Translations under genes and position numbers: made by a program
Shown here: piece after piece, positions 4,158 through 46,885 of the stretch
Numbering within the stretch: position 1 is the stretch's first letter
Layout of the letters: each line of letters starts with the position of its first letter
Source of the DNA: Malacoraja senta
Taxonomy: Eukaryota
NCBI GenBank assembly: GCA_038087875.1
Contig: CM075992.1
Location: forward strand, 2,482,001-2,546,000
DNA length: 64,000 nucleotides
Direction: 5' to 3'
Notes under the pieces: generated by a model
Database searches by the model: none
Told to the model about the DNA's origin: nothing
The model's input: only the letters and a program-made list of their open reading frames with translations

Positions 4158-7100
4158 TGAATGAATGAATGAATACTTTATTGTCATTATAACATGTAAA
4201 CATGTACAACGAAATTAGAAATGCCAACCAGTCAGTGCACAATTCACACATTTTCTAAAAGCAAAAGTCTAAGATAAACAACTAAAATAAATAACATGAA
4301 AAAAAAACACATTCTTCTGTCGATTTCACAGTCCCTTTGGAGTGTAGCACACCTGTACTCATTTGGTGGCTACATTAAGTGTATTTATTGCTGTGGGATA
4401 AAAACTGTTTTTGAGTCTGTTTGTCCTTGTCCTCATTGATCTGTACCGTCTGCCTGACGGCAGCAGTTCAAACAGGGAGTGACCGGGGTGGAAAATGTCC
4501 TTTATGATCTTCTGGGATTTTTTGAGACAGTGGGAACTGTGTAGGTCCTCCAAGGTGAGGAGAGGGCAGCCGATAATCTTCTGGGCGTTGTCAATAGCCC
4601 TCTGGAGCGCTTTCCTCTTAGTCGCTGTGCAGCTGGTGTACCACACGCATACACAGTATGTTAAGATGCTCTCTATTGAGGATAGCAGCAGTCTCTGGGT
4701 GATGTTGTTCTTCCTGAGCACCCTCAGGAAGTACAGTCTCTGCTGGACCTTTTTCAGCAGCGCAGAGGTGTTCACGCTCCATGTCAGGTCCTCCTCAATG
4801 TGGATTCCCAGGAAGCGGAAATCCGCCACGCTCTCCACACAGTCCCCATCGATGATTAGTGGTGTAATGTCCGTTTTCTTCTTTCTGTAGTCTATTATGA
4901 GCTCCTTGGTCTTTGAGGTGTTGAGGAGCAGGTTATTTTCTCCACACCACCCTGTCAGCTGCTCCACCTCATCCCTGTAGGCGTACTCATCCCCCCCAGA
5001 GATGAGCCCCACCACCGTGGTGTCATCTGCGAATTTGACAATGGTGTTACTGTGGTGGGCGGGGGTGCAGTCATATGTGTAGATGGTGTAAAGCAGGGGG
5101 CTCAGCACGCAGCCCTGTGGAGAGACGGTATTGAGGCTGAGGGCCGTAGATGTGTGATGGCCCACTCTGACTCTCTGACTGTGACCCGACAGGAAGCTCT
5201 TTATCCACATGCAGGTGGAGTGTGGAAGTCCCAGGTCCCCCAGTTTGTCCACCAGTTTGTGGGGAAGGATGGTGTTAAAAGCAGAGCTGTTGTCCACAAA
5301 GAGCATCCGCACGTAGCTCCCCCGCTGCTCCAGATGTGACAGTGCAGCATGGAGGGCTGTGGCTACAGCATCCTCTGTGGATCTATTCGCTCTATACGCA
5401 AACTGGTGGGGGTCAAAGCTTCGGGGCAGGAGTGATGTGATGTGACCCCGGACCAGTTTTTCAAAGCACTTCATCACCACTGGTGTGAGTGCGACTGGCC
5501 GGTAGTCGTTGAGACTGGAAATGTGGGTTTTTTGGGGCAAGGGGACTATGTTGGAGGACTTCAGACAGGATGGGACAGTGGACTGGGCCAGAGACTGGTT
5601 GAAAATCCTCGTAAAGACTCCAGCCAGCTGGTCTGCGCAGTCCTTCAGCACGCGTCCAGAAACGCCGTCGGGTCCAGCAGCCTTCCTCGGATTGATGGCC
5701 CGCAGCGTGCGCCTCACCTCATGCTCCTCTATTTTGAGGGATAAGCTGCTGTGGACCATGTGGTGTGATATGGCTGTCTCTGGTGGCTCCACTTCAAAGC
5801 GAGCAAAGAAGAGGTTCAGCTCCTCTGCCAGCGAGGCGTCACCTTCAGCAGCTCCAAGGTTGGTCTTGTAGTTGGTGAGATACTGGATCCCCTGCCACAC
5901 CTGCCTGCTGTTGTTACTGTCCAGGTGGTCCTCTATCCTCCTTCTGTAGTCTGATTTGGCCTCTCTGATGCCTCTCTTCAGGTTAGCTCGGGCCGTGCTG
6001 TATAAAGCCCTATCGCCAGACCTAAAAGCGGTGTTTCTCTCTTTTAACAGCCGCTGGACCTCCCTGGTCATCCAGGGCTTCTGGTTGGGGTAGACCTGGA
6101 TGCGTTTGTCCACTGTGACAGTGTCCATGCAGTTTTTAATGTAACATAGTACACTGTCTGTGAACACCTCCAGGTCCTGGTGTTCAAACACATCCCAGTT
6201 GGTCCTGTCGAAGCAGTCCTGCAGCTGCTGAGAGGCGCCATCAGGCCAAGTTGTGATGGTCTTTGTGATGGTAGGAGCAGTTTTCCTGAGGGGGGCATAT
6301 GCAGGAATTAAAAGCAGGGACATATGGTCAGACTGGCCCAGGTGTGGTAGTGGTCTAGCCCTGTAGCCCAACTTGATGTTGGAGTAGACCTTGTCCAATG
6401 TGTTAGCTCCTCTTGTAGCACATTTAACATGCTGATAGAATTTGGGTAGCATTCCCTTCAAGTCCGTGTGATTAAAGTCCCCTGCTATGATGTGAACAGC
6501 GTCAGGATATGTGCTCTGATGGCTGCTAGTGCTACCATACAATTGTCCGATAGCCGAGTTCGCATTAGCATCCGGTGGTATGTATACCACAGTTATCATG
6601 ACGACAGTAAACTCTCTAGGGAGATAAATGGGCCTGCATTTAACAGTCACATACTCCAGGTCCTGGGAGCAGTGACTGTCTACAATCACTGTGTTAGTAC
6701 ACCAGTTGTTGTTCACGTACACACAGAGCCCTCCTCCTCTGGTCTTACCAGAGTCTCTTGTCCTGTCATGACGCTGTGCGGTGTAGCCTGTTAGCTCGAT
6801 AGCAGAGTCCGGAATGAATGAATGAAGCCAGGTCTCTGTGATCAACAGAATGCAGCTGTCCTTCACGGCGTTGTTAGCTGCAGTTTGTAGCCTCAGTTCA
6901 TCCATCTTGTTAGCGAGGGATCTGGCGTTCGTGAGAAACAGGCTGGGAAGCGGTGGTTTGAGTGGCTGCCTCCATAGCCTGGCTAGCGCGCCGGCCCTGC
7001 AGCCTCGCTTTTTCCTTCTCTCTCTGCGCCGCCTTCGCCTCCTCCCCGCTGGGATGGTAATCCACGGAGAGCCGGGGCTCCTCGCTATGTCCACCGGGAT

Positions 7101-7286
7101 CTTATGTAAACGGACAAACTCGGCTGTCACACTCCGCTCGCGACCAGCTCCAATCCTAAGGAGATCATGCTTGCTATAGACGTTGTTCGCCCGACAGTAA
7201 GTATACAGGACAACATGTGCGAACACAAAAAACACAAAGCACCGACCGGGAGAACATTGAGCCGCTGCAACTGTGTGCGCCGCCAT
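4158..7286 (-). mobile_element. Near full-length Rex1/Babar-clade non-LTR retrotransposon
   Basis: Single APE+RT ORF, 3'UTR with AATAAA and (TTCA)n tail, and TSD (T)AACTTGAA at 4149-4157 and 7286-7294; visibly more GC-rich than its flanks. Confidence 0.92.
4359..7286 (-). CDS. Rex1-type polyprotein: AP endonuclease + reverse transcriptase (975 aa)
   Basis: APE motifs TNARSL, ITETWL, GGGLCVYV, VYIPP, AGDFN, TLD, SDH; RT motifs [42 protein letters not shown]; Rex1-type C-terminus LLPSGRRYRS..RLKNSFYP. Confidence 0.93.
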   Translation of the reverse strand: MAAHTVAAAQCSPGRCFVFFVFAHVVLYTYCRANNVYSKHDLLRIGAGRERSVTAEFVRLHKIPVDIARSPGSPWITIPAGRRRRRRRERRKKRGCRAGALARLWRQPLKPPLPSLFLTNARSLANKMDELRLQTAANNAVKDSCILLITETWLHSFIPDSAIELTGYTAQRHDRTRDSGKTRGGGLCVYVNNNWCTNTVIVDSHCSQDLEYVTVKCRPIYLPREFTVVMITVVYIPPDANANSAIGQLYGSTSSHQSTYPDAVHIIAGDFNHTDLKGMLPKFYQHVKCATRGANTLDKVYSNIKLGYRARPLPHLGQSDHMSLLLIPAYAPLRKTAPTITKTITTWPDGASQQLQDCFDRTNWDVFEHQDLEVFTDSVLCYIKNCMDTVTVDKRIQVYPNQKPWMTREVQRLLKERNTAFRSGDRALYSTARANLKRGIREAKSDYRRRIEDHLDSNNSRQVWQGIQYLTNYKTNLGAAEGDASLAEELNLFFARFEVEPPETAISHHMVHSSLSLKIEEHEVRRTLRAINPRKAAGPDGVSGRVLKDCADQLAGVFTRIFNQSLAQSTVPSCLKSSNIVPLPQKTHISSLNDYRPVALTPVVMKCFEKLVRGHITSLLPRSFDPHQFAYRANRSTEDAVATALHAALSHLEQRGSYVRMLFVDNSSAFNTILPHKLVDKLGDLGLPHSTCMWIKSFLSGHSQRVRVGHHTSTALSLNTVSPQGCVLSPLLYTIYTYDCTPAHHSNTIVKFADDTTVVGLISGGDEYAYRDEVEQLTGWCGENNLLLNTSKTKELIIDYRKKKTDITPLIIDGDCVESVADFRFLGIHIEEDLTWSVNTSALLKKVQQRLYFLRVLRKNNITQRLLLSSIESILTYCVCVWYTSCTATKRKALQRAIDNAQKIIGCPLLTLEDLHSSHCLKKSQKIIKDIFHPGHSLFELLPSGRRYRSMRTRTNRLKNSFYPTAINTLNVATK

Positions 7287-8730
7287 AACTTGAACTTCTA
7301 ATAAGTATTAAAGATTCTGCAAACTTTTATACATTTCTCCATCTGCTTTCCATAATAGCTTGGCAAGTTTCCACCTTTAGCCAACTTGTTCTTCAGAAAG
7401 TAGACTAAAATGCTGGAGAAACTCAGCGGGTGAGGCAGCATCTATGGAGCGAAGGAATAGGTGATGTTTCAGGTCGAGACCCTTCTGGTTTTAGGGACCT
7501 TTGCTGATCAAGCATGGCTATGAAAGTTCAAACGTAACAGGTAATAAGGGGCTGTGCAATCAATTGCTGATAAATTATTTAAAATAAATTTCTGTATTAG
7601 CTCAGAATAGCATTCCCGTCCCATTAGCTAAGAGATTCATGATTTCAGCCATGTTGCAGAGACTTGACCATCCAATGTAGGCTGACATTTTAAAGCAATA
7701 TTGAGAAATGTTAGTTCATTAAAATGAGACTGCAACTATCCTCTCGATGGGCATAAATATACCATACCATTGGTCTACATTCAAAATGCCAGTCCAAGCT
7801 CAACATTTCAAAATACATCATCAGAAGAAATGATCTCAGATATTTGGTTCATTGCTGTTTTTTTGTTGTATCTTGCAATACACTGCTCCTGTACAATTCA
7901 ATAGCCCAAACACCATGAAGCACTTTGAGACATCCTATGGTTTTCGAAGATGATATATTCATGCAAGTTATTTTCATCATTTTACAGCACTAACTGATTA
8001 ATTTGCAATATGAACCAAAACATTGCAGTCGCCATTTTATTAAGCACATAGCTTGAGCAGTGAAAGCAATCTGTTTGGGATTGCAAGACATACTATTATT
8101 ACCACCAAACAATTAACATAGAAAATAGGTGCAGGAGGAGGCCATTTGGCCCTTCGAGCCTGCACCACATTCATATAGCATTCAATAGCATTCATTCTGT
8201 CTTCAGTATGAAGCAGGTGTGATTTAGGCAAGTCCGCACAAGATATGAACTTTACTGTAATTTGAAAAAAATAATGAAAGAGTGCATAGTCTGTAAGTAC
8301 ACAGTGAATTGATAATTCCCTTTCAAAGTATACTGGCATGCCAGCCTTTGCAACCTAAGAATATAATTTCATTGAAATGTTATATGTTGGTCCATGAATC
8401 TAAATTGGGGAAGTTAGATTGGTTTTTACTTGTTTTCTCCTTTAACCCTAAACTCCAAAGCAATCCAACAAATTATTCACAGTGGATAAAAGATTTGATT
8501 CTAGACAATAGAAATTAAAATGAAGAAGTTAGAAACAAGAAGAAATTCAGGGTAAATATACTCACAACCAATAGTTTTGTTGGCATAATACTTCAATATG
8601 TACACATTATACATGTTCAGTGCACTGATACATCAGGACAAATTCAAGTTGCTATATTAGCATTTCACACTCATTCTGAATTCATTTTGCATTATCTTTC
8701 AAAAATTGTGATTTTCATTTTACCAATTAA

Positions 8731-9804
8731 CCATATAACCAAAACAGCACGGAAACAGGCCATCTTGGCCCTTAAGTCCGTGCCGAACATTTTTTAAATT
8801 TTTTTAAAAATTAAAAATAAATACTTCCCCCTAGTCCCATCTACCTGCACTCAGACCATAACCCTCCATTCCTTTCCCGTCCATATACCCATCCAATCTA
8901 TTTTTAAAGGATAACATCGAACCTGCCTCCACCACTTCCACTGGAAGCTCATTCCACACAGCTACCACTCTCTGAGTAAAGAAGTTCCCCCTAATGTTCC
9001 CCCTAAACTTCTGTCCCTTAATTCTCAAGTCATGTCCCCTTGTTTGAATCTTCCCTACTCTCAATGGGAAAAGCTTATCCACGTCCACTCTGTCTAACCC
9101 GCTCATAATTTTAAAGACCTCTATCAAGTCCCCTCTTAACCTTCTGCGCTCCAAAGAATAAAGACCTAACTTGTTCAACCTTTCTCTGTAACTTAGTTGC
9201 TGAAACCCAGGCAACGTTCTAGTAAATCTCCTCTGTACTCTCTCTATTTTGTTGACATCCTTCCTATAATTAGGCGACCAAAATTGTACTCCATACTCCA
9301 GAATTGGCCTCACCAATGCCTTGTACAATTTTAACATTACATCCCAACTTCTATATTCAATGCTCTGATTTATAAAGGCCAGCACACCAAAAGCTTTCTT
9401 TACCACCCTATCTACATGAGATTCCACCTTCAGGGAACTATGCACAGTTATTCCTAGATCCCTCTGTTCAACTGCATTCCTCAATTCGCTACCATTTACC
9501 GTGTACGTCCTATTTTGATTTGTCCTGCCGAGATGTAGCACCTCACATTTGTCAGCATTAAACTCCATCTGCCATCTTTCAGCCCACTCTTCCAAATGGC
9601 CTAAATCTCTCTGTAGACTTTGAAAATCTACTTCATTATCCACAACACCACCTATCTTAGTATCATCTGCATACTTACTAATCCAATTTTCCACACCATC
9701 ATCCAGATCATTGATGTACATGACAAACAACAGTGGACCCAACACAGACCCCTGAGGCACCCCACTAGTCACCGGCCTCCAACCTGACAAACCTGACAAC
9801 CTGA
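8731..9804 (-). mobile_element. 5'-truncated young CR1 LINE (open RT C-terminal half)
   Basis: W.PVTSGVPQGSVLGP, YADD, W.MEFN..KC, DLG, QFWSP, LE.RRLRGDLI with an open frame to the stop at 8831; TSD CAATTAA at 8724-8730 and 9805-9811. The ORF start upstream of ~9800 is flanking DNA. Confidence 0.92.
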
Positions 9805-11009
9805 CAATTAATCTTGCAAGTTTCATTGTTTTTCCCCTGCCCTTTACTATCCTCAGCCAAGAGAACATACAATATAGATGGACCACAAGTTGAATTCGCA
9901 ACTGAGTCTAAAATATCACATCAGCAGCAAAGTATAAGGAAATTCAATATTCATTTCATTTACAAAAGAAGATTTTTCGGTCAATGGTTATTTTTCACTC
10001 TTATCACAAAATTTCAGTTGCTGACAAGCCCAGAAATCAAAGTTGAAGTGTTCCCACACTAGCAGTGCTGTTTTCTTACCACTACAAATGCTTAAGAGAT
10101 GCAGTCACTTCCTGACTGTGCTCCATTGCTGCAGCCAAATGCTCACACTGGACTAGGCGATGCCACCCACAAAAATAGGCAAGGTTTAGAACTCACTATG
10201 AGGGATGATCAGTTTATATGTTAGCATATTGAACAGTACCAGGACCTGTCAATTAATATATTACTAATTAATCAGATTACTTTCCGTCAAAATCTTCTCG
10301 CAATCTGAATAAAACATTAAGGTGTCATTCTAATTCACCGGCCGCTCAAAGAAGAACAAATTGAAATAGACTAATGGAGTTTCATTCTAAATTGATTTGT
10401 ATTAACAATAAGACCATATGTTATGTGCCAGTCTCTGCAGGGTCAGCGCCATTGTTCTGTATTAATTGTAGAACAACACTATTCATAAATGTTTTCTGTA
10501 TAAATTATAGAAATTACTTGAGGCTTCAAGAATACACGCATATAATATTAGCTCCACTGTAAAATATATATTTCCGTTAATATATTTGCTTTAGGTTCAC
10601 TAAGAAAGATCTGATTAGATTGTGTCCAACATTTTAGATAAATGGCAACACAAAATTCAACGAAATATTTTAATAATGTTACTGTTTGAAAAAATGACCA
10701 GATTTTTGGTATAGAGACATATTGATAGGGTGGTTTATTGATAGAATATTTTCCTATATTGGAATTCTGTTTAAAATGAATGAAAAAATATTTCTCTTCA
10801 TAAAATCAAACACTCTTTGTTATTACTCTGTTCATTTATAAATAGAAGCATTGAGAATATGCAGAGGCTTTTAAAAAATGCTAAAATCTGATAGGGTAAA
10901 AAATTTGGTGAAAGACAAGTAAACACAGGTAGGAAGTCAGAAAAATCAAAGGAACTGTGAAATGTAAGCTTGTAGTCAGTTACTTGCAATGGAGATACGC
11001 TGCAATAGA

Positions 11010-17446: not shown

Positions 17447-17771
17447 AATTGCGCCTTCTATGATCTCTGGTGAATTTGGAACCGGAGACCACTGCTGAAT
17501 TTTGTGGGCTCCCTGAAAGTGGACTACAATATTGGTGCAGAGTGCATGGGCTGCGAATCCTTCTCCTTGTTTAGATCCTAACCGGAGCTTCTGTCACGCC
17601 AGTCTCTCTCCCAAAACTTCATTGATTGCAAAACTGTGATATCGACCTGCTAGGCGGCAGCCACTGAATTGCCAGCGTCGACTTCATGCATTAATTTCTC
17701 GCCGATACCGAGCTGGGGAGCGATTTTTAAAAAAGGCTAGAGGGGAACAGCGGTCACAAAGACCGGGGAGG
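17447..17771 (+). other. Probable 5'UTR part of the S1PR5 coding exon
   Basis: Strong acceptor ttttgttttcctttctccattag ending at 17446; S1P receptor genes typically have non-coding upstream exon(s). Candidate upstream donor gtaagt at 16867. Confidence 0.5.
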
Positions 17772-18896
17772 ATGATCTTGGGGTTGGGTGAAAGATTGAG
17801 ACTGAACTTCGGGGACTATTCAAACAATGAGACTGTGAGCCTGCATTATAATGCCACCGGGAAGCTGACCCCCGGCAGGTACAAAGCAGGTCTGAGGGTC
17901 CACGCGGTGATATTTTTGATAGTCTGTGTGTTTATAATCTTGGAGAACCTGCTGGTCTTCATCGCCATCCGGAAGAACAGCAAGTTCCACACGCCCATGT
18001 TTTACTTGCTCGCCAACCTGACTATGTCCGACCTGCTGGCGGGGGTGGCCTACTTGGTCAACATCCTGCTGTCCGGTGCCAACACGGTGAAGCTGACGCC
18101 GCTGCTGTGGTTCCTGAGGGAGGGCGGCGTTTTCATCACCCTCACCGCCTCGGTCTTCAGCCTGCTGGCCATCGCGGTGGAGAGGCATGTCACGATGGTG
18201 AGGATGCAACTGCACAACGCGGACAAGAAGTGGCGCACTCGGCTCTTCGTGGGCGCCGACTGGGTCTTCTCGCTCTTCCTCGGGAGCCTCCCAATCTTGG
18301 GTTGGAACTGCATTGGGAACCTGCGCGTTTGCTCCACCATGCTGCCGCTCTACTCGAAGAAATACATCCTGGTGTGCATCCTGATCTTTATCTTTGTCCT
18401 ATGTGCCATCGTGATACTGTACGTTCGCATCTACCTTAAGGTCAAGACTAACAGCCTCCCCATAGGCACTTCCAGAACGACCATGACCAAGAAGTGCCAG
18501 AAATCTCAGGCGTTGCTGAAGACTCTCACCATCGTGGTCGGTACTTTTATCGGCTGCTGGCTACCGCTCTTTATCGTGCTGCTACTGGACGTCGCCTTAA
18601 CGACGAGGAGCTCTTTGATTAGTAACTTGTCCGATTATTGCCTAGGACTGGCCATGTCCAATTCCGCCTTGAATCCCATCATTTACACCCTGACCAACAG
18701 GGACATGCGCCAGACCATTGTGCGCCTGCTATGCCTGACCAAAGTAGGGGAGCAACCTCGCTGTTGCGGGGTGATCATCTCCGAGTGTAGCAGCACACAG
18801 CAGGACAGGTCCTCCATGCACAGAAACGAGCTACTCCACACCACCCTCAGCTCCGGTAACGGACCGCAGTCTCCCACCAGGATCTCGCTGGTCTGA
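17772..18896 (+). CDS. S1PR5: Sphingosine-1-phosphate receptor (EDG family class A GPCR), S1PR5-like, 374 aa
   Basis: 7 TM segments; LHYN.TGKL, LENL, FH.PMF, SDLLAG.AY, WFLREGGVF (R3.28/E3.29 S1P-type), ERH, LGWNC......CST.LPLY, CWLP, LGLAM.NS.LNPIIYTLTNRD. EGGVF and LGLAM..NPIIYTLTNRD match S1PR5 better than S1PR1-4 (recalled alignment). Confidence 0.88.
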   Translation: MILGLGERLRLNFGDYSNNETVSLHYNATGKLTPGRYKAGLRVHAVIFLIVCVFIILENLLVFIAIRKNSKFHTPMFYLLANLTMSDLLAGVAYLVNILLSGANTVKLTPLLWFLREGGVFITLTASVFSLLAIAVERHVTMVRMQLHNADKKWRTRLFVGADWVFSLFLGSLPILGWNCIGNLRVCSTMLPLYSKKYILVCILIFIFVLCAIVILYVRIYLKVKTNSLPIGTSRTTMTKKCQKSQALLKTLTIVVGTFIGCWLPLFIVLLLDVALTTRSSLISNLSDYCLGLAMSNSALNPIIYTLTNRDMRQTIVRLLCLTKVGEQPRCCGVIISECSSTQQDRSSMHRNELLHTTLSSGNGPQSPTRISLV

Positions 18897-28852: not shown

Positions 28853-30075
28853 GTCAAGTCAAGAGAGTTTATTGTCATGTGTCCCAGATAGGACAATGAA
28901 ATTCTTGCTTGCTGCAGCACAACAGAATATTGTAAACATAAAACAGAACAGTTCAGTGTGTCTATATAGCATAGACCACACATATACACATAAATAAACA
29001 GATAAAGTGCAATAGGCTGTTATAGTTCAGAGTCTGTTTGTTGGCGAGTTTAATAGCCTGTTGGCTGTGGGGAAGTAGCTGTTCCTGAACCCGGATGTAC
29101 CAGATTTCAGGCTCCTGTACCTTCTACCCGATGGTAGCGGAGAGATGAGTGTGTGGCCAGGATGGTGTGGGTCCTGATGATGTTGGCAGCCTTTTTGAGG
29201 CAGCGATTGCGATAGATCCCTTCGATGGTAGGGAGGTCAGAGCCGATGATGGACTAGGCAGTGGTCACAACTTTCTGCATTCTTTCCGCTCCTGGACGCT
29301 CAAGTTGCCGAACCAAGCCACGATGCAACCAGTCAGCATGCTCTCTACTGTGCACCTGTAGAAGTTTGAGAGAATCCTCTTTGACATACCGACTCTCCGT
29401 AATCTTCTCAGGAAGTAGAGGCGCTGATGTGCACTCTTTATAATTGCATCAGTGTGCTGGGATCAGGAAAGATCTTCGGAAATGTGCATGCCCAGGAATT
29501 TGAAGTTCTTGACTCTTTCCACCATCGTCCCGTTGATATAAACGGGATTGTGGGTCCCTATCCTACCCATTCCAAAGTCCACAATCATATCCTTGGTTTT
29601 GCTGGTGTTGAGAGCCAGGTTATTGTGCAGGCACCATTTGGTCAATCGGTCGATCTCACTTCTAAACTCTGACTCTTCCCCATCAGTGATTCGTCCACAA
29701 CAGTGGTGTCGTCGGCGAACTTGATGATGAAGTTCGCACTATGTCCGGCTACGCAGTCATGAGTACAAAGTGAGTAAAGCAGAGGGCTGAGCACGCAGCC
29801 TTGAGGTGCTCCCGTGCTGATTGTTATCAAGGATGACACATTTTCACCAATACGGACAGACTGTGGTCTGTGGATGAGGAAGTCGAGGATCCAATTGCAG
29901 AGGGATGCGCAGAGACCCAGATCTGAGAGCTTGGTAACCAGCTTGAGGGGATGATTGTATTAAATGCCGAGCTGTAGTCAATGAATAACAGCCAGACATA
30001 TGAGTTTTTGTTGTCCAAGTGGTCCAGAGCGGAGTGGAGAGCCAGTGAGATCGCATCCACCGTTGATCTGTTATG
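28853..30075 (-). mobile_element. 5'-truncated, frameshifted Rex1 LINE
   Basis: [50 protein letters not shown]; (CTTGA)n tail; same family as 45826-46885. Confidence 0.88.
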
Positions 30076-37850: not shown

Positions 37851-39712
37851 CAATAGCCTGAGGAGTTTCTCACCAAAATATAATCTGCAATCACATTTTA
37901 AAATCCTCAACAACAAATTTGATTCTAGCCGTGCCCGACTTCTTCTGAGAGATAACTAAGATTCCATCTCAACATAGCTGCCAACTAGCATCAGTTTGTG
38001 AAAATGAGTCAAAATGAATTCAATTATCTGCACATGGAAGTCATAATACACAGCTATTCTTGTAACTAAAGTTTTAAAAGTTATTTACTATAGAATCCAT
38101 GTTTGCTCTTCCAGAGCCTCCTGAAGTTACAGTTGCCTAAATGGAGTCCAAACTGCACGTGAAAAGAGTAAGGGACAGAAAAATCATGGGTGCATAAGTT
38201 GCATATAACACCACCAGTTTCAGATACTATTTAATAAATGATCACAACTCCTCTGTAAAACAAATTTAAATACATAATGTAGAAATCCAGAAAGTAAAAG
38301 ATTATTCCCACAATGGAAGTGGAAGCAAAAACACTTTATTAGAACAGATTTTCAGTGCAAGCCCAAAATACAGTTTATTTCACAATATTGTTGCTTCGCA
38401 TTGTATGAAAACCCACAAAAACCTTATTATATACTCGGGTTTCAATACTCATGGCTCTTACTAAAACCCAACATTTTTCATGTCAAAGCTTCTTGTTTTT
38501 TCACTGTTATATTTTCATTTACCGTAGCCACATATTTCCCACCTTGACTAACTTGGAAAGACAAGCCATGCATACGGAAGGCAGTAATTAGAATCTGAGG
38601 AATCCAGAAGGCCCATTATTTGGAAAGTGAACCAAAATGTCAGACACGTGACCAGATGTCATCACAAAGTGATACATTAAAAAGTTCTTGTAAGAGATTA
38701 ATCTTATTCATTGTTATTTTCCTACCTACAGAACTACGATGCATGTCTGCTAAATATGAACATTCTAGCTTTTTAAAATTCAGTTTGTAAAATGCTTCTG
38801 TGATGTCACACACGTGACCAGTCACACTTGACCTCTTACCCTAAATATTGTCAGCATAAAAATGTCAGCTGATAAACCGAAAAAAATACAAATCATATAT
38901 GCAGCACAAAACAACATACCTGTAAAGCTTCCAGAATTAGAAGAGATGTATTCCTCAATTTTTCATCCTTTTGGTCACATACATGACTAAGAATGGGCCA
39001 GAACCAGTATTGTCAATTCATGTCTATTCAATGACCTTACTACAGAACTATGGAGACACAAGGAATCTTGGGCAAAACACAAACTGCTGGAGTAACTCAA
39101 TGGGTCAGCATCTCTGGAGGGCAGGAATAGACAATGTTTTGGGTCGGTACCTTTATTCAGACTGATTGAGTGGGGGACACAGGAAGGAGAGGGTTTTTTT
39201 TTTAAACTGGGAGGGGGGGGGAATATTACTCCTCTTCTCTCCTTATTTGACACCCTCACTCTTGTCTCCTTTTCATATCTCGCCTTTGACCACCCGTCAG
39301 CCAATCAAAACCCCACACCTGCATGCACACATCACTTGTTCTATCTTTCCCGTCCCCACCTCCTTTCCAGCTTTCTTCCACCTATTTCAATCAGGCTGAA
39401 GAAGGGACTCGACCCAAACTGTCATATCCATGCCCTCCAGAGATGCTGTCTGACCTGCTGAGTTACTCCAGCACTGTGCGTTCCAATACAGATCTAGTTA
39501 CGTAGCAAATATTGGCAATTTTCATCTAATAACAACTCTACGGTTCTCATGCCCATGGCAGCAATTTTTTTTTAAATTTACATGTGCCAAAACAAATAGA
39601 TCAATCATTTCTGTAAATGTTTACATTAAATATATATATATATACACACACACAGTGATTAATAGCATTTTACAAAATTCTAGTAATTTGACACAGAGTG
39701 GTAGTAAACAGA

Positions 39713-39718
39713 TTTATT
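39713..39718 (-). terminator. Candidate SPC24 polyadenylation signal AATAAA
   Basis: First AATAAA noticed on the minus strand downstream of the stop codon (~265 nt). Confidence 0.4.
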
Positions 39719-39983
39719 CCGGCATGTTTGTAGATGAGAAGATTTTCAATCACCACCACTCCATTAGGGAAAACACATTGTCCAACTTACTTTGTTGTAC
39801 AATAAGTCATCTTTTAAATATGGCCTTACAAAAATACCACATCCAAAGAATCTGTTGAATCAACTTTTCACTCATGAAAGCTATATTTTCCAAGATCGAA
39901 GCCATATGACTGGAAAGATTTCATTCAAAACGTGGATACACAAAATATGTAATTCACTTATAGTTCCAGGCCCAGAAAATAAT

Positions 39984-40090
39984 TTACCAATCCGTGCTCA
40001 CCAGACTCCACAGGTAATCGCAGATGAAACTGTCGGAGTGCTTAGTAGAATCAATGTTAATGGGTTGTGCCAAACCCACTCCAAAGTGAA
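39984..40090 (-). CDS. SPC24: SPC24 coding exon 5
   Basis: Branch TTCCTTAAC (40111-40103), cag acceptor, [14 protein letters not shown]. Confidence 0.95.
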
Positions 40091-43000
40091 CTGGAAAGTA
40101 TAGTTAAGGAAATCACTGCATTCTCATCAATCCGAAAAGACACCCTACTTTCCAACACTTGAATAATTAAAAAGGATTGAATGTAAACTTAAAATATAAG
40201 AATCTACTGGCATGTTTTGACCAAAAATAATGTAATAATTTTTTATAAAAGGCACATTGATCAGTTGTTATACTTGTGCATGCAACGTAAGAAAATGGCA
40301 GTGTGGAACATAATAATTACCAATATTCTCAAATTTAACCAGAATGTCAGAAGAGAAATGAAACTTAAAGGCCCAAAACAGACCTTATTAAAACACAACT
40401 TTTAAGCAATTAAAAAAAAATCATTAATCCATTTTCTGTGCTATTCATTAATAAAATTACTTTAAATATTAGCTGTTATTAACTGTCATAAACTGTTTCT
40501 CTGGTAATTCTGGCTTGCCTGAAATTTATTTCTTCTTATCTCTTCCAACCTTTATGATATGTTAATTTTTCATCAATTTACCTTAGATTACAACCATTAT
40601 TGCAAAGATGTTTCAGTTCTCTTACAGAGTAGTTCATGAATTTTAACATGTTCATCCAGGTCAGTAGAGCATATGGTCTTTCAAAATGATCCAATTGTAT
40701 TTCAACTGATCAACCCAATTAGAACCAAAATAGTTTGCAGCTTGGAAAGTAGCCAGTCTGCCCATGTCTCCACCATTTATTTTTAAACTAGTTTTCTTCA
40801 CACTGCCTTTTATAATTAATTCAAATTAAATACCCATATCTATGGAAGTGAAGGAAAAAATGTAAACCTACTGATCTATTTTATGGCAGGCAAGTTATTA
40901 GAAACTATAATTAAAAATTGAGTGGCTGATCATAAATAAATCTTTGGGATCGCAATTTTTGAGTGGTACATGACAGGCATTTTTAGGATTTCAAATATAA
41001 TGAATAGGATAAATGGGGTGAGCTGGTGTGTGGGACAAATGGATATACGGGTGTAAGCAGTTCTGGGGAGAAGGCAGGAGAATGGGGTTAAGAGGGAAAA
41101 ATAGATCAGCCATGATTGAATGGTGGAATAGACTTGATGGGCTGTATAGCCTGATTCTGTTCTTATTACTTATCACCTTATAACTTAAAAAAATACTGGA
41201 AATTAAGCATAATTAAGGATGAACCAATCTCCCGTCTATTGCTTTAAACATGTTAAATCTGCAATTAATGGATGTGTTCTAATGGGATAAAAAAGACAAA
41301 GCAAGTGGAAGGATCTATTGAAGATTTTTTTTGATAGATCTTCAATATATCTGTTGAATATATAGATTCAACATATGAATCATAATATCATAATACCATC
41401 TTGTACTCCAATTCATTTGTTCCCCTTGAAACACCAAGCTTTTTTCTCTGGAAAATTTTGAAAATCTGTGCCACCACTGCTCAATTTACCCCCTTTTATT
41501 TTGAAGATATCGGCCCCAAGCATAACCTTCAATTCATCAGCAGAATTCATCTTTGTAGTCGCATATGAAAGGATACCGCCTCTTACAAGTGAAGGATCGC
41601 AGTCATAGTCCCAAATGATCTTAGTAACCTTGTGGAAGATGTGGGCCAAGTACCTATGCAAACCATATTTAAATATAAGTACTCCACAAAAAGAAACACG
41701 TGTTGCCAACAGCAGCAAATCTTCAAGTTGAGACAGCAACATATCTCTTACATACTATGTGCTATACCATATCTTACAGTCAAAGGCTTGATTATTGCAG
41801 AATGCTCCATGCTTTGTAAGCAGGTTGCTAGTGCATCTGGAGGTCAGGTGCTCATTTTAAGTACTGCACAATTCTACTGCAATCTATAACCACAACTTAC
41901 CATTACGACGATTCCCAATCCTTCAAACTGCACTCAGGCTGTCATGAAGACTGAATTATTTATCCTCGCTGTGCAAAGATGCTGGTTGATCTCCCTCCAC
42001 ACATCACTTAATCCATTAGTCAATCCATATCCGAATATAATACTAAAGACAGTGAAGGTAGAAGTGGCTTTTCAACATAATTTTAAGTATTTTAACTTAC
42101 TTAGTTGATGGAATAACGACTGTAGTATCTTCATCTACCTCCTCTTCCAATTTAGACATTTCTTTTTCAGACTTCTCAAGCACCTCCAGTTCTTTCTGTA
42201 ACAATGTGATCTTTATATATTAAGGAAATTAATTGGTTTAAGTTGGTTATTGTAAATTGGCTCATTTTGCAACATTATAAACCTTTTCCTTTGATCCACA
42301 TACTGTTGGCTTTGCTTAAAAATGTGTTCATCAACAATTATGTATTTATCCTAAATTGTTAGCCATTGCTTGTTGTCATTTTAATGTAGCTTCCCCATCT
42401 ATTATAGCCAAATCACACCATGCCTTTGTAATTTAGCTGTATTCGGATTTGAGGCTCGAGTATCAGATTGGACTAAATCACTATCAATTTGTGTATAAAT
42501 CTTTACAGTATGGGTGGCAATAAATACAGGCCTTGCCACTGATGCCCAAATTCCAATAATGAATATAAACACAAACCACAAGAATCTTATCCTCCATTTC
42601 AATCAACCCTTTGTCACATTTTTAGATCCAAAATTCTTGAGTTGGTTCAACATACTCAACTACAAAATGTCTTCGCTATGCTTGAGTTCATCCTCCACAC
42701 TGTTATTGCTCATTTGGTTTAAAGTTGGTGTGGATTAAAGTTCTCCATTATTATTGTTATACTTGTTAATGCATCTGAATGCATCTACATCTAGCACCCT
42801 CGTCAGCAGGATAACTCAGCTATTCTTCAAAGGTCACACCAAGAAACTCTAAACAAAGCAAATTCCACTAAATGCAGGAAATGCAAACCAAAAGCACAGA
42901 ATGCGACCAATGCTCAGTCAACCACCCATTATTTACCGTGATACATTCGTTTTGAACCAAAGCTAGAAATAATAATTTCCCTCTCCAAAGATGGCGTTCA

Positions 43001-43907
43001 ATTTACTGAATATTTCCAATTTGCTGTTTTACGATTGAAACTGGACTGGAAATCAATCTGCAATTAAGAGCTGGAAAAACACAGGAATTTGCATGCCAGA
43101 GCATTACTGTTTCAGCTAAGGAAAGTACTGAAGTTTTTCTATCTTAAGCACAACATAGTAATAAAGGATATTCAAGTTCCATTTCATTCTTAGAATTCTG
43201 TTGTTGAGTCTCTTTCCACTTTTCTTTAATCTTCTGTAATTCCAGTAAACTTATCTCTCTTTCTTCTCCCACATCTATAACCTCCTGTGCCACGTACTCC
43301 TGTGATTGCTGGATCTCTGAAAATACCAAAATATTATTATATCAAACTTCTTGGACAAACCACATCTATTTCAGAAACTGTACATTGTTTTGTAAGCATG
43401 AAAAAGTCCCTTCCATTCCAAAAACAGTGATTTGCTTGGAATTTGAATTCTATAATGATTATAAAAATTGATGAAAGAGTAAGATTGCAAATAAAAAATG
43501 ATCAATTCACATACATACACAAATCTAATTTCTTCCAACAGTTTTGAACAACGCACACTCAATTTGCCCTTCCAAACAATAACAGAATTAAGCAATGATG
43601 ACTTCAAAGTCAGCAAGTCTGCTGCAAAATCAAACCTTCAAAAGTCTAGTTTCAGATTATAATTATTTTCAAACTTTTACGACTAGGCTTACTAATGGGC
43701 GATTTTAGATAATTCACTTAAAATTCCAAATTTGCTTGGCTTACCTCTTAACTGCTGCTTCACACATTGTTCTACTTCCATATAGACATTCACCATTTTT
43801 GCCTTATAATTCATGGCATTCTGCAGAAGTACTTCCCCTTGACAACCAGAGAGGATAATCATCATCTCATCTGCTAATGCCTTAATCTCTTGCATTTGTG
43901 CCTCCAT
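39984..43907 (-). CDS. SPC24: Kinetochore NDC80-complex subunit Spc24, 198 aa; join(43907-43745,43316-43172,42205-42101,41653-41577,40090-39984)
   Basis: Exons of 163+145+105+77+107 = 597 nt splice in frame to MEAQMQEIK...KQQLR/EIQQSQE...[102 protein letters not shown]-terminal coiled coil plus Spc24 signatures [30 protein letters not shown]. Confidence 0.96.
40091..41576 (-). other. U12-type GT-AG intron (1486 nt)
   Basis: 5'SS GTATCCTTT; consensus branch TTCCTTAAC 12 nt from the AG end. Confidence 0.93.
41577..41653 (-). CDS. SPC24: SPC24 coding exon 4
   Basis: tag acceptor; ends G|GTATCCTTT (U12 GT-AG donor). Confidence 0.94.
42101..42205 (-). CDS. SPC24: SPC24 coding exon 3
   Basis: Branch TTCCTTAAT then CAC| acceptor; AA|gtaagt donor; encodes [14 protein letters not shown]. 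Confidence 0.94.
42206..43171 (-). other. U12-type AT-AC intron (966 nt)
   Basis: 5'SS ATATCCTTT, branch TTCCTTAAT at 42227-42219, terminal AC; the reading frame is preserved only with these termini. Confidence 0.93.
43172..43316 (-). CDS. SPC24: SPC24 coding exon 2
   Basis: ttttcag acceptor; ends GA|ATATCCTTT (U12 AT-AC donor). Confidence 0.93.
43745..43907 (-). CDS. SPC24: SPC24 coding exon 1 (exon starts at 43923 after a cag acceptor)
   Basis: tttcag acceptor at 43924, aagATGg Kozak context, G|gtaag donor. Confidence 0.9.
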
Positions 43908-43989
43908 CTTTGCAGTACACAACCTGAAACAGAAGGCAGTTTAATTTGTTGACATTCATTGACAAATTGAGAGCAATGGCACCTCAATA

Positions 43990-44450
43990 GTCCATTGCTC
44001 CCACTCTTATTAGTGGGTCATTGGTGGAGAGAGTTAACAGCTTCAAATTCCTGGAAGTTACACCTCAGATAACCTGTCCTTGGCCTAGGATCACGAAGAA
44101 GGCACGCCAGCACCTCTACTTTCTTAACAGTTTAAAGACATTCAGCATGTCACCAAACAAACTTATACAGATGCGCTCGACAGGTTGTGTCATGGCATTT
44201 CCAATGCTACAGGAACGCAAGAGGCTGCAGAGTGGTTTACTCAGCCCAGTCCATCACAGGCACAGCCCTCCTCTCCACCAAAAGTATTTATATGAGGTGC
44301 TGCCTCCAGAAGGTAGTGTGTGTCATTAAGAACCCAACCATCCAGGCCATGCCCCTTCTCAATACCACCATTGGGCAGGGTGTACGTAATCATGAAGTCC
44401 CGCACCAGCAGGTTGAGGAACTGCTACACTACAACTATCAGATTCTAGAA
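43990..44450 (+). mobile_element. Old Rex1-type LINE fragment in the SPC24 5' intron
   Basis: VERVNSFKFL...ITKKARQHLYFL..L..F.MSP; decayed. Confidence 0.7.
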
Positions 44451-44669
44451 CATATAATAATAAACCCAGCTTGGCCTACTGCTGACCTTCTGTGAAATAC
44501 CATGGTGACCACATCTCCATTCAATTAACAATAGGAGGAGGGTGTCAAGCATGGGGGAAGGGGCTGATGCCTTTTCCAAGGTTGTGAAGGGAGGGTACTG
44601 ACAGCAACCATTCGCAGGGTTACAAGGGGAGGCAACCCCCACCCAACATCTAGTGGGTGCAAGAGGAAA

Positions 44670-45040
44670 GACTAACATTTCCCCCCTCACTCCAAGGGAT
44701 GAAAGGGAGGTAGACATCTTCCCCACCATTCGGGATAAGGGGGGGGGGACTACATCTCCCCCCCCCCCCCCATGTTGGAAGGGGAGGAACTGACATTTCT
44801 CCCTCACACTCACGGGGATGAACAGACATCTCTCCCACTCTTTGGGGTGAGGGGGTACTAACATCTCCCCCCCCCCCACCACCACCCTCCCCCTTCCTCA
44901 GGGACGCAAGGGGAGGGACTGACATATCCTCCTCCTCATCCCCAACACCTAGGAGCTGCAGTGGGAGGGACAGAAATGTCCCCACTCTCCCACAGGGATG
45001 ATGGGGAAGGGACGGACATCTCCCCCCCCCCTGCCCCACA
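44670..45040 (+). repeat. Degenerate GC-rich minisatellite (~40-60 bp units)
   Basis: Repeated 'ggggg..(act/g)gacat(c/t)tccccccc' units with alternating G- and C-runs. Confidence 0.65.
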
Positions 45041-45099
45041 CTGGGCTGCAAACCCTCTCCACCCGGACGGCTGGGATGAGGGTATCGTTGGGGGGACGG

Positions 45100-45735
45100 G
45101 GTAAGATGGCCGAGGTTGGCGTTGCACTGACCTGCCACCGAGCAGCAGCTAGCTGACGAGTTGGTGCCCCCTCTCCCCGCTGTCCTTGAGTCTGCCCCTC
45201 GTCCCAGAGCCGCGGTTCCTCTCCGCTCCCCCTTGGGCCCAACTCCTGCCCCCAGTTCCTCTCTTCGCTGTCCCTGTCCCTGTCCCTGTCCCTGTCCGAC
45301 CGCCGTTCCTCCTCTCCAATGTCCCTCCCTCTCGCTCTCTCTCTCTCTCCGCTGTCCCCGTCCCTTCACTTGCCGCTGCGGCCCCTCTCCCCTGTCCCTA
45401 CTCCCCCCTCCTCTCTACCCCCTGTCCCTGTCCCTGTCCCTGTCCCTCTCCCTCTCCCAGCGCGGCTCCTCTCCACCGGGTTTCCCGCCTCCACCTCCCG
45501 CGCGCAAACCATTCAAACAGCGCGCGCCCAACGGCCACCGCCGCCTCCGCCAACGGTCATCCGAAGACCCCGCCCGCCTGCCCAGTAAGCTGCCGCATCA
45601 CAAGCAAACTCATATATATATTTTAAATTAAAATCCTTTTTTTCCGATCGCATATCTATTAATTCACTGGGTTTTTTCTCGACGGTAAGGAGGGAGGGGA
45701 GGGGAGGGGGGGGGAGGACAACGGGGCTCCAATTC
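45100..45735 (-). promoter_or_regulatory. CpG-rich SPC24 promoter / non-coding first exon with CHR, E2F, GC-box and CCAAT motifs
   Basis: CpG cluster 45460-45600; TTTGAA (CHR) on - at 45517-45512 preceded by GGCGCGC; TTTCCCGC at 45481-45488; GC box 45568-45575; CCAAT 45729-45733; candidate donor CAG|gtcagt at 45131; (ctgtcc)n low-complexity tracts. Confidence 0.7.
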
Positions 45736-45825: not shown

Positions 45826-46885
45826 TAGACACAGTGGAGAGCATGCTGACTGGTTGCATATATACTCATGACTGCGTAGCCGGACATAGTGCGAACTCCA
45901 TCATCATCTTCTTCTTCTTGCTTATGGCGTGCACAGCCTAAAGTTGTAGGACAACTTGTTCTATTTGATCTTATTTGATTGTGCACGCCGGGTTGATTGC
46001 ATTAGTCGAAACAGGGCGGACCACGCGAAGGTTGCAATCTTCATGTTCGCTGACGACACCACTGTTGTGGGACGAATCACTGATGGGGACAAGTCAGAGT
46101 ATAAAAGTGAGATCGACCGATTGACCAAATGGTGCCTGCACAATAACCTGGCTCTCAACACCAGCAAAACCAAGGAACTGATTGTGGACTTTGGAAGGGG
46201 GAGGATAGGGACCCACAATCCCGTTTATATCAACGGGACGATGGTGGAAAGGTTCAAGAACTTCAAATTCCTGGGCGTGCACATTTCCAAAGATCTTTCC
46301 TGGTCCCAGCACACTGATGTAATCATAATGAAAGCACATCAGCGCCTCTACTTCCTGAGAACTTTACGGAGAGTCGGTATGTCAAAGAGGACTCTCTCGA
46401 ACTTCTACAGGTGCACAGTAGAGAGCATGCTGACTGGTTGCATCGTGGCTTGGTTCAGCAACTTGAACATCCAGGAGCGGAAAAGGATGCATAAAGTTGT
46501 GTCCACTGCCTAGTCCATCATGACCTCCCCACCATCGAAGGGATCTATCGCAGTCACTGCCTCAAAAAGGCAGCCAACATCACAAAGGACCCACACCATC
46601 CTGGCCACACACTCATCTCTCCGCTACCATCGGGTAGAAGGTACAGGAGCCTGAAATCTGTTACATCCAGGTTCAGGAATAGCTACTTCCCCACGTCCAT
46701 CAGGCTATTAAACTCGCCTACAAACAGACTCTGAACTGTAACAGCCTGTTGCACTTTATCTGCTTATTTATGTGTACATTGAACTGAACTGTTCTGCATT
46801 TTTGCTTACAATATTCTGTTGTGCTGCAGCAAGCAAGAATTTCATTGTCCTATCTGGGACATGATAATAAAACTCTCTTGACTTC
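45826..46885 (+). mobile_element. 5'-truncated Rex1 LINE with a nested (GAA)n-tailed insert (~45907-46040)
   Basis: [44 protein letters not shown]; 3'UTR ending actctcttgact. Confidence 0.88.

What the first reader, a model, noticed from the sequence alone, without database searches (positions are those of the whole stretch)
40091..43171. SPC24 carries two minor-spliceosome introns of different subtype (AT-AC and GT-AG)
Seen: the gene assembles into an open 198-aa Spc24 only if coding intron 2 is ATATCCTTT...TTCCTTAAT..AC and coding intron 4 is GTATCCTTT...TTCCTTAAC..AG, alternating with two short U2 introns (428 and 447 nt). Established: U12 introns are rare, genes with two are rarer, and mammalian SPC24 is a known minor-intron gene. 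Inference: the arrangement dates to the gnathostome ancestor and ties kinetochore assembly to minor-spliceosome activity. GT-AG-only gene predictors would misannotate it.
Basis: partly seen in the sequence, partly recalled or inferred. Interest (0 to 1): 0.72.

Follow-up and report, generated by a model that had tools for sequence, protein, structure and literature searches.

The report
Conserved minor-intron pair in skate SPC24
The chromosome-segregation gene SPC24 of what is likely a skate has two introns with the signals of the rare "minor" splicing machine, one with AT-AC and one with GT-AG ends, and they sit at the same two places where human SPC24 is already catalogued as having minor introns, so the feature is real but not new.

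Summary
Confirmed, but already known. On the minus strand, SPC24 (198 aa, 193/198 identical to little-skate Spc24) has an AT-AC intron at 43171-42206 and a GT-AG intron at 41576-40091. Both have U12-type donors and branch sites 12-13 nt from the 3' end. Spliced contigs from related animals join exactly the proposed exons in 4 of 6 transcript-like runs laid; the other two lack exon cover. Published tables give human SPC24 an AT-AC U12 intron and a GT-AG intron at the same codon positions and phases (flanking exons 105 and 77 nt in both species). The GT-AG intron is 'minor' in two papers and 'U2' in a third. About 45-50 human genes carry two U12 introns. Corrections: an open frame alone does not force AT-AC; there is an extra 5'-UTR intron; and the AT-AC intron is probably older than jawed vertebrates, because an amphioxus model reads into the same donor. 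The predicted mis-annotation is real in public models. The scan noted this AT-AC position earlier in an oomycete. Minor-spliceosome dependence in the skate is inferred, not shown.

The parts
45132..45290 (-). Non-coding first exon (upstream end approximate)
   Evidence: Spliced contigs of X1 and X2 join 45130^43921 with 5 bases of ambiguity; the retrocopy also crosses this junction
43924..45131 (-).
43745..43923 (-). First coding exon; ATG at 43907
   Evidence: 54 of 54 residues identical to little-skate Spc24
43317..43744 (-). Coding intron 1, GT-AG, U2-type, 428 nt, phase 1
43172..43316 (-). Coding exon 2, 145 nt
42206..43171 (-). Coding intron 2, AT-AC, U12-type signals, 966 nt, phase 2 in codon 103
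   Evidence: 966-nt skip in X1, X2, X10, X12; orthologous to the human AT_AC U12 intron
43163..43171 (-). U12 donor ATATCCTTT
   Evidence: predicted pairing with the genome's U11 and U6atac
42219..42227 (-). U12 branch motif TTCCTTAAT, 13 nt before the intron end
   Evidence: predicted pairing with the genome's U12
42101..42205 (-). Coding exon 3, 105 nt (human exon also 105 nt)
41654..42100 (-). Coding intron 3, GT-AG, U2-type, 447 nt, phase 2
41577..41653 (-). Coding exon 4, 77 nt (human exon also 77 nt)
40091..41576 (-). Coding intron 4, GT-AG, U12-type signals, 1486 nt, phase 1 in codon 164; last intron
   Evidence: 1486-nt skip in X1 and X2; X10 and X12 continue from exon 4 directly into exon 5 letters (table 7)
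41568..41576 (-). U12 donor GTATCCTTT
40103..40111 (-). U12 branch motif TTCCTTAAC, 12 nt before the intron end
39449..40090 (-). Last exon: coding part 40090-39984 (Pfam Spc24 C-terminal match) plus 3' UTR to at least about 39449

Best explanation
This is the intron-containing SPC24 gene of what is likely a skate, in which coding introns 2 (AT-AC) and 4 (GT-AG) carry U12-type signals at the same positions as the two catalogued minor introns of human SPC24 and are likely removed by the minor spliceosome. Shown: sequence signals, spliced junctions in related animals, position and phase shared with human, and U11, U12 and U6atac genes in this genome. Predicted: U11 and then U6atac pair with each donor and U12 pairs with each branch site, while U1/U2 handle the three flanking GT-AG introns, so exons 3 and 4 each bridge a minor and a major site. 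Inferred consequence: full-length Spc24 needs the minor spliceosome twice. Retaining intron 2 would stop translation after 111 aa and lose the C-terminal head (likely an NMD target). Retaining intron 4, the last intron, would give a 217-aa protein with an altered end. Both introns were inherited at least from the jawed-vertebrate ancestor (inferred), and the AT-AC intron is probably older.
For: Motifs and spacing; 12-13 nt spacing against the 11-13 nt optimum in Turunen 2013. All five junctions in X1 and X2. Intron 2 and 3 junctions plus the exon 4-5 join in X10 and X12. A processed copy on G000:C2 is colinear with the spliced model across the AT-AC junction. Human chr19:11148118-11149093 is AT_AC U12 with donor ATATCCTTTT and branch GTCCTTAAC. 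Human 11147290-11147817 is GT_AG and listed as minor. Human exon sizes 105 and 77 follow, and the protein alignment to human is ungapped. U11, U12 and U6atac over Rfam cut-off in G000. Predicted duplexes are stronger for introns 2 and 4 than for the two coding U2 introns: U11 -6.5/-6.2 vs -4.6/+1.5; U12 -8.3/-9.1 vs -3.4/-5.8 kcal/mol. Read-through peptides in faulty public models mark the same donors in other species.
Against: No knock-down or lariat data exist for this animal, and no laid run is shown to be RNA of the window's own organism; the tool labels X1 and X2 'RNA? (probably DNA)' and X10 and X12 'RNA?'. Contigs show presence, not which junction dominates. De Wolf 2021 lists the human intron-4 orthologue as U2, and the Merico 2015 row gives only the 976-nt intron. 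In Olthof 2024 the human intron 4 is not scored responsive to U12, U4atac or U6atac morpholinos or in MOPD1 and Roifman cells. Intron 4 here has an 80% pyrimidine 3' end, compatible with U2AF binding. U4atac was not found in G000 (0 matches among 51 candidates scored; inconclusive).
Confidence: 0.92

Rival explanations
1. Only intron 2 is a true minor intron; the GT-AG intron 4 looks U12-like but is removed mainly by the major spliceosome.
For: Human orthologue classed U2 in de Wolf 2021; absent from the Merico 2015 row; not responsive in 6 of 9 human perturbation columns of Olthof 2024 Table S6; pyrimidine-rich 3' end here.
Against: Exact donor and branch motif at 12-nt spacing in this genome. 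Classed minor in Olthof 2021 and 2024 and responsive to CENATAC loss and ZRSR2 mutation. An alternative-splicing event at this intron responds to U4atac and U6atac blockade. G/S-I-L read-through, which implies a GTATC(C)T donor, occurs in raccoon dog, aye-aye, sturgeon and poison-frog models.
Confidence: 0.06
2. Intron 2 is really spliced at nearby GT/GC-AG sites and the AT-AC reading is a coincidence.
For: 40 of 552 GT/GC-AG pairs keep the frame open, one giving 198 aa.
Against: Four runs skip exactly 966 nt, and the three possible registers read AT-AC, TA-CA or AT-AT, none GT-AG. The AT-AC model is ungapped against little-skate, other elasmobranch and human proteins.
Confidence: 0.01
3. The spliced contigs come from a processed pseudogene in DNA rather than from transcripts, so they do not test current splicing.
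For: A processed copy exists in G000 and a similar joined form lies in DNA-like runs X19 and X20; the runs' RNA status is only guessed.
Against: The spliced contigs differ from the window's exons at only 1-5 letters per exon and reach exons 4-5. The processed copy is 85-88% identical and its match ends in exon 3. A retrocopy would in any case record the same splicing event.
Confidence: 0.01

Closest known systems
Human SPC24 minor introns chr19:11148118-11149093 (AT-AC) and chr19:11147290-11147817 (GT-AG), hg38; Olthof 2021 (PMC8034651), de Wolf 2021 (PMC8280824), Olthof 2024 (PMC11347168)
   Same: Same gene, same two positions and phases, same subtypes, same 105- and 77-nt internal exons around one U2 intron.
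   Different: Intron lengths (966 and 1486 nt here, 976 and 528 nt in human; middle intron 447 vs 118 nt). This gene has a 5'-UTR intron. The human GT-AG intron is classed U2 by one of the three papers, while the skate copy has exact U12 motifs. I did not see the human intron-4 donor or branch sequence.
Mouse Spc24 as a U11-dependent gene (Baumgartner, bioRxiv 10.1101/182816)
   Same: Published link between minor splicing of Spc24 and mitosis: it was the only minor-intron gene more than twofold down in U11-null cortex.
   Different: Shown in mouse only; I did not determine which of the two introns the listed 821-nt mouse intron is.
[quoted passage not shown]
   Same: Two U12 introns clustered in one gene, a known non-random pattern (Moyer 2020, PMC7367187).
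   Different: SPC24 is short, with 2 of 4 coding introns minor. Mixed subtype is expected in about a third of such genes if subtypes are independent (my arithmetic from the 24% and 69%).
Callorhinchus milii SPC24 in Olthof 2024 Table S8
   Same: A cartilaginous-fish orthologue of one human SPC24 minor intron is already scored 'minor'.
   Different: The other column reads 'protein_ortholog' (no orthologous intron recovered). I could not see which column is which intron. The UniProt model mis-splices junction 2, which would explain the gap.

Membership tests
U12-type (minor) intron | Conserved 5' splice site RTATCCTTT (consensus recalled; human SPC24 example) | tested here: met
   Both introns match 9 of 9
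U12-type (minor) intron | Conserved branch sequence able to pair with U12 snRNA | tested here: met
   TTCCTTAAT and TTCCTTAAC; predicted duplexes with the genome's own U12
U12-type (minor) intron | Short branch-to-3'-end distance (optimum 11-13 nt) | tested here: met
   13 and 12 nt after the motif; 14-16 nt counted from the adenosines
U12-type (minor) intron | AT-AC or GT-AG termini used in spliced RNA | tested here: met
   966- and 1486-nt skips in contigs of related animals; the AT-AC register is one of three equivalent ones and the only one with the consensus donor
U12-type (minor) intron | [quoted passage not shown] | tested here: inconclusive
   Intron 2: 55% pyrimidine in the last 20 nt; intron 4: 80%, partly due to the branch motif itself; U2 introns 55-70%
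U12-type (minor) intron | Minor snRNAs present in the genome | tested here: inconclusive
   U11, U12 and U6atac found over cut-off; U4atac not found, and that search cannot show absence
U12-type (minor) intron | Excision depends on U11/U12/U4atac/U6atac | not testable with these tools
   Only human and mouse perturbation tables were seen
U12-type (minor) intron | Score above threshold with intronIC or U12 weight matrices | not tested
   No such program or matrix on hand; exact-match and pairing tests used instead
SPC24 orthologue (Ndc80 complex) | Coiled coil plus C-terminal Spc24 domain, full-length homology to Spc24 | tested here: met
   193/198 identical to Leucoraja Spc24; that protein aligns ungapped to human Spc24, E 6.5e-42; last exon alone hits PF08286 at E 4e-4, below the whole-protein cut-off; the only other copy found in G000 is a broken processed one
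Orthologue of the human SPC24 minor introns | Same aligned codon and phase | tested here: met
   Human split in codon 102 (phase 2) vs codon 103 here with an alignment offset of 1; +105 and +77 nt put intron 4 at phase 1 in human codon 163 vs 164 here

The most novel reading that the evidence does not exclude
The alternating AT-AC / U2 / GT-AG block of SPC24 is a coupled switch kept by selection since early vertebrates: the inefficient AT-AC intron, itself of pre-vertebrate age, gates removal of the two downstream introns and so ties Spc24 output to minor-spliceosome activity. Hints: in human cells, loss of the A-type factor CENATAC raises retention of intron 2 (0.06 to 0.57), intron 3 (0.08 to 0.25) and intron 4 (0.16 to 0.46); donors at both sites leave read-through traces across vertebrates, and the AT-AC one also in amphioxus. 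Plain inheritance without a regulatory role explains the same data.
Probability: 0.15. Interest if true: 0.5.

Novelty: already known. Interest (0 to 1): 0.17.

Why it matters
Modestly. It extends a catalogued human arrangement to a skate with transcript-like support, so both introns date at least to the jawed-vertebrate ancestor. The exact U12 signals at intron 4 favour 'minor' in the published disagreement over the human orthologue. In practice, public Spc24 models in chimaera, amphioxus, two frogs and an electric eel are wrong at the AT-AC junction, which also hides this intron from orthology surveys. SPC24 is a compact natural reporter carrying both subtypes.

Tried and rejected
Open-frame argument as proof: rejected, many GT/GC-AG alternatives are open. 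Motif counts in the window: not significant alone. The run search listed no holder on record as RNA (no RNA holder listed). X5 and X6 gave no cover of the exons. Motif conservation in the DNA-like runs X19 and X20: no difference inside the three covered motifs among the 40 of 81 rows shown, so inconclusive. Using the retrocopy to fix the register of intron 2: the 12 best-scoring shifts all kept the 966-nt length but scored 50-52 of 60, so the register is not resolved. Metagenome scan for other SPC24 loci: 205 pattern matches, none confirmed. U4atac search in the own genome: no match, inconclusive. The two other RTATCCTTT matches (19542, 61634) and two near-matches were read in three frames by eye only and showed no evident exon. 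No read-through trace of intron 4 was seen in the distant, invertebrate-like proteins, which says nothing on its age. Olthof 2024 Table S8 rows for lamprey, hagfish, amphioxus and Albugo were not read at the SPC24 columns (supplement cap reached). bioRxiv supplements were not seen, and file 13 of de Wolf 2021 was not searched. Earlier notes in this genome: none fit.

Full report
Observation. On the minus strand the window holds a donor ATATCCTTT at 43171 and GTATCCTTT at 41576, and branch motifs TTCCTTAAT at 42227 and TTCCTTAAC at 40111. With exons 43907-43745, 43316-43172, 42205-42101, 41653-41577 and 40090-39984 the frame is open for 198 aa. Introns are 428 (GT-AG), 966 (AT-AC, phase 2), 447 (GT-AG) and 1486 nt (GT-AG, phase 1). 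The branch motifs end 13 and 12 nt before the intron ends. Taken alone the motifs are barely above chance in 64 kb (donor 4 vs 1.71 expected; branch 3 vs 1.94); their placement at the splice ends is what counts, about 6e-9 per intron as a rough product.

Gene and organism. The model is 193/198 identical, ungapped, to Leucoraja erinacea Spc24 and 171/198 to Pristis, so the window is likely from a skate. The Leucoraja protein aligns without gaps to human Spc24 in PDB 8ppr (E 6.5e-42). A protein search of the own genome gave 7 matches: five in this gene and two in one broken copy on contig C2.

Splicing evidence. I laid 8 of the 23 listed runs; all are contigs. X1 and X2 (organism A, one study) join all five junctions, including skips of 966 and 1486 nt and a further 1208-nt skip that reveals a non-coding first exon. 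X10 and X12 (two more studies) join introns 2 and 3, and their loose end at 41577 is the start of the last exon. X5 and X6 do not cover the exons. X19 and X20 behave as DNA and hold the introns. The 966-nt skip has two bases of ambiguity; the registers read AT-AC, TA-CA or AT-AT, none GT-AG, and only AT-AC has the consensus donor. Limits: RNA status is a guess (X1 and X2 are labelled probably DNA), the organisms are relatives, and contigs cannot show which junction dominates. The C2 copy is a processed pseudogene, 85-88% identical, with stops and an insertion, crossing the UTR, first and AT-AC junctions without the introns; its match ends in exon 3. It supports the intron length but not the register, and it is too diverged to be the source of the 97-99% identical contigs.

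Machinery. U11, U12 and U6atac genes pass the Rfam cut-off in this genome. U4atac was not found, which that search cannot turn into absence. Predicted duplexes with these snRNAs are stronger for introns 2 and 4 than for the two coding U2 introns (the UTR-intron boundaries in that call were 2 nt off and are not used). Dependence on the minor spliceosome in this animal is inferred. Retention of intron 2 would stop after 111 aa; retention of intron 4 gives a 217-aa frame with an altered end; skipping exon 3 stays in frame (163 aa), while skipping exon 4 or both shifts the frame.

What is known. Olthof 2021 (PMC8034651; passages and supplement rows seen) lists two minor introns in human SPC24, chr19:11148118-11149093 and 11147290-11147817, an alternative-splicing event at the second that responds to U4atac and U6atac blockade, and a mouse Spc24 event that rises in U11-null tissue. 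De Wolf 2021 (PMC8280824; supplement rows seen, file 13 not searched, no SPC24 hit in the main text) gives the first as AT_AC U12 with donor ATATCCTTTT and branch GTCCTTAAC, and the second as GT_AG but of class U2; the intron between them is 11147895-11148012. These coordinates give human exons of 105 and 77 nt, the same as here, and the printed donor and acceptor put the human split at phase 2 in codon 102, aligned to codon 103 here. Olthof 2024 (PMC11347168; passages and supplement rows) classes the second intron as minor, responsive to CENATAC loss and ZRSR2 mutation but not in the other six columns, and lists SPC24 twice among human minor introns. In its Callorhinchus row one SPC24 column reads minor and the other protein_ortholog (675 columns recovered). 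Merico 2015 (PMC4667643; one supplement row) gives only the 976-nt intron. The kinetochore link is published: Spc24 was the only minor-intron gene more than twofold down in U11-null mouse cortex (bioRxiv 182816, passages), and SPC24 is a core-essential minor-intron gene (PMC6865273, passages and supplement rows). Restoring SPC24 alone did not rescue CENATAC-depleted cells (bioRxiv 2020.08.06.239418, passages), which argues against SPC24 as the single link. Two U12 introns occur in 45 human and 46 mouse genes (PMC1557818, passages) or about 50 (PMC3584512, passages), and clustering is general (PMC7367187, passages and section 15). PMC10639083 (passages) gave nothing on sharks. Seven searches listed no paper on skate SPC24 introns; most subscription papers and online intron databases were not searched.

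Mis-annotation and age. If a predictor reads through the AT-AC donor it makes Y-P-(F/L); through the GT-AG donor, G/S-I-L. Among 124 named or unnamed vertebrate-like Spc24 proteins, 6 have a length anomaly at junction 2, 3 at junction 1, none at junctions 3 or 4, and 2, 0, 0 and 0 at four control sites. Four of the six begin their insertion with Y-P: Callorhinchus, Ranitomeya, Xenopus tropicalis and Electrophorus voltai. Among 146 further proteins from the representative search, many models break at these two positions; of ten looked up, gecko and cobra models show Y-P-F at junction 2, and raccoon dog, aye-aye, sturgeon and poison-frog models show G/S-I-L at junction 4. The Branchiostoma lanceolatum model has the same three-residue Y-P-F insertion at the same column as Callorhinchus. 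I infer that the AT-AC intron was present in the chordate ancestor; this rests on one protein model, not on DNA. An earlier scan note reports the same position in an oomycete (not checked here). For intron 4, nothing older than jawed vertebrates was found or excluded.

Verdict. The feature is real and correctly mapped, both introns meet the sequence definition of U12-type introns, and both are orthologous to introns already catalogued in human SPC24. New here are only the skate instance, support for the minor class of intron 4, the mis-annotation tally and the amphioxus hint. Interest 0.17.

Noticed in passing
G000:C2:49403716-49404221 (L008, minus strand): Broken processed pseudogene of SPC24, 85-88% identical, crossing three exon junctions including the AT-AC one, with an insertion; match ends in exon 3. 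A similar joined form occurs in DNA-like runs X19 and X20, so it may predate those species' split.
   Followed up: partly
   Followed up: yes
P0015, P0029, P0050, P0111, P0166, P0143, P0204: Public Spc24 models (chimaera, two frogs, electric eel, amphioxus, cobra, gecko) read through the AT-AC donor and carry a spurious Y-P(-F/L) peptide.
   Followed up: partly
window 17640-18896 (+): Single open frame encoding a sphingosine-1-phosphate receptor-like GPCR (best PDB hits S1PR1 and S1PR5, E about 1e-100); paralogue not determined.
   Followed up: no
window 4359-7307, 8831-9907, 29642-29959 (minus), 45950-46513 (+): Reverse-transcriptase frames, probably LINE retrotransposons, one of 982 aa.
   Followed up: no
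G000, many contigs: 46 of 46 scored candidates match U6atac over cut-off, suggesting many U6atac-derived copies, against 2 for U11 and 1 for U12.
   Followed up: no
human tables: CENATAC depletion raises retention of human SPC24 introns 2, 3 and 4 together, although the factor is described as A-type specific.
   Followed up: no
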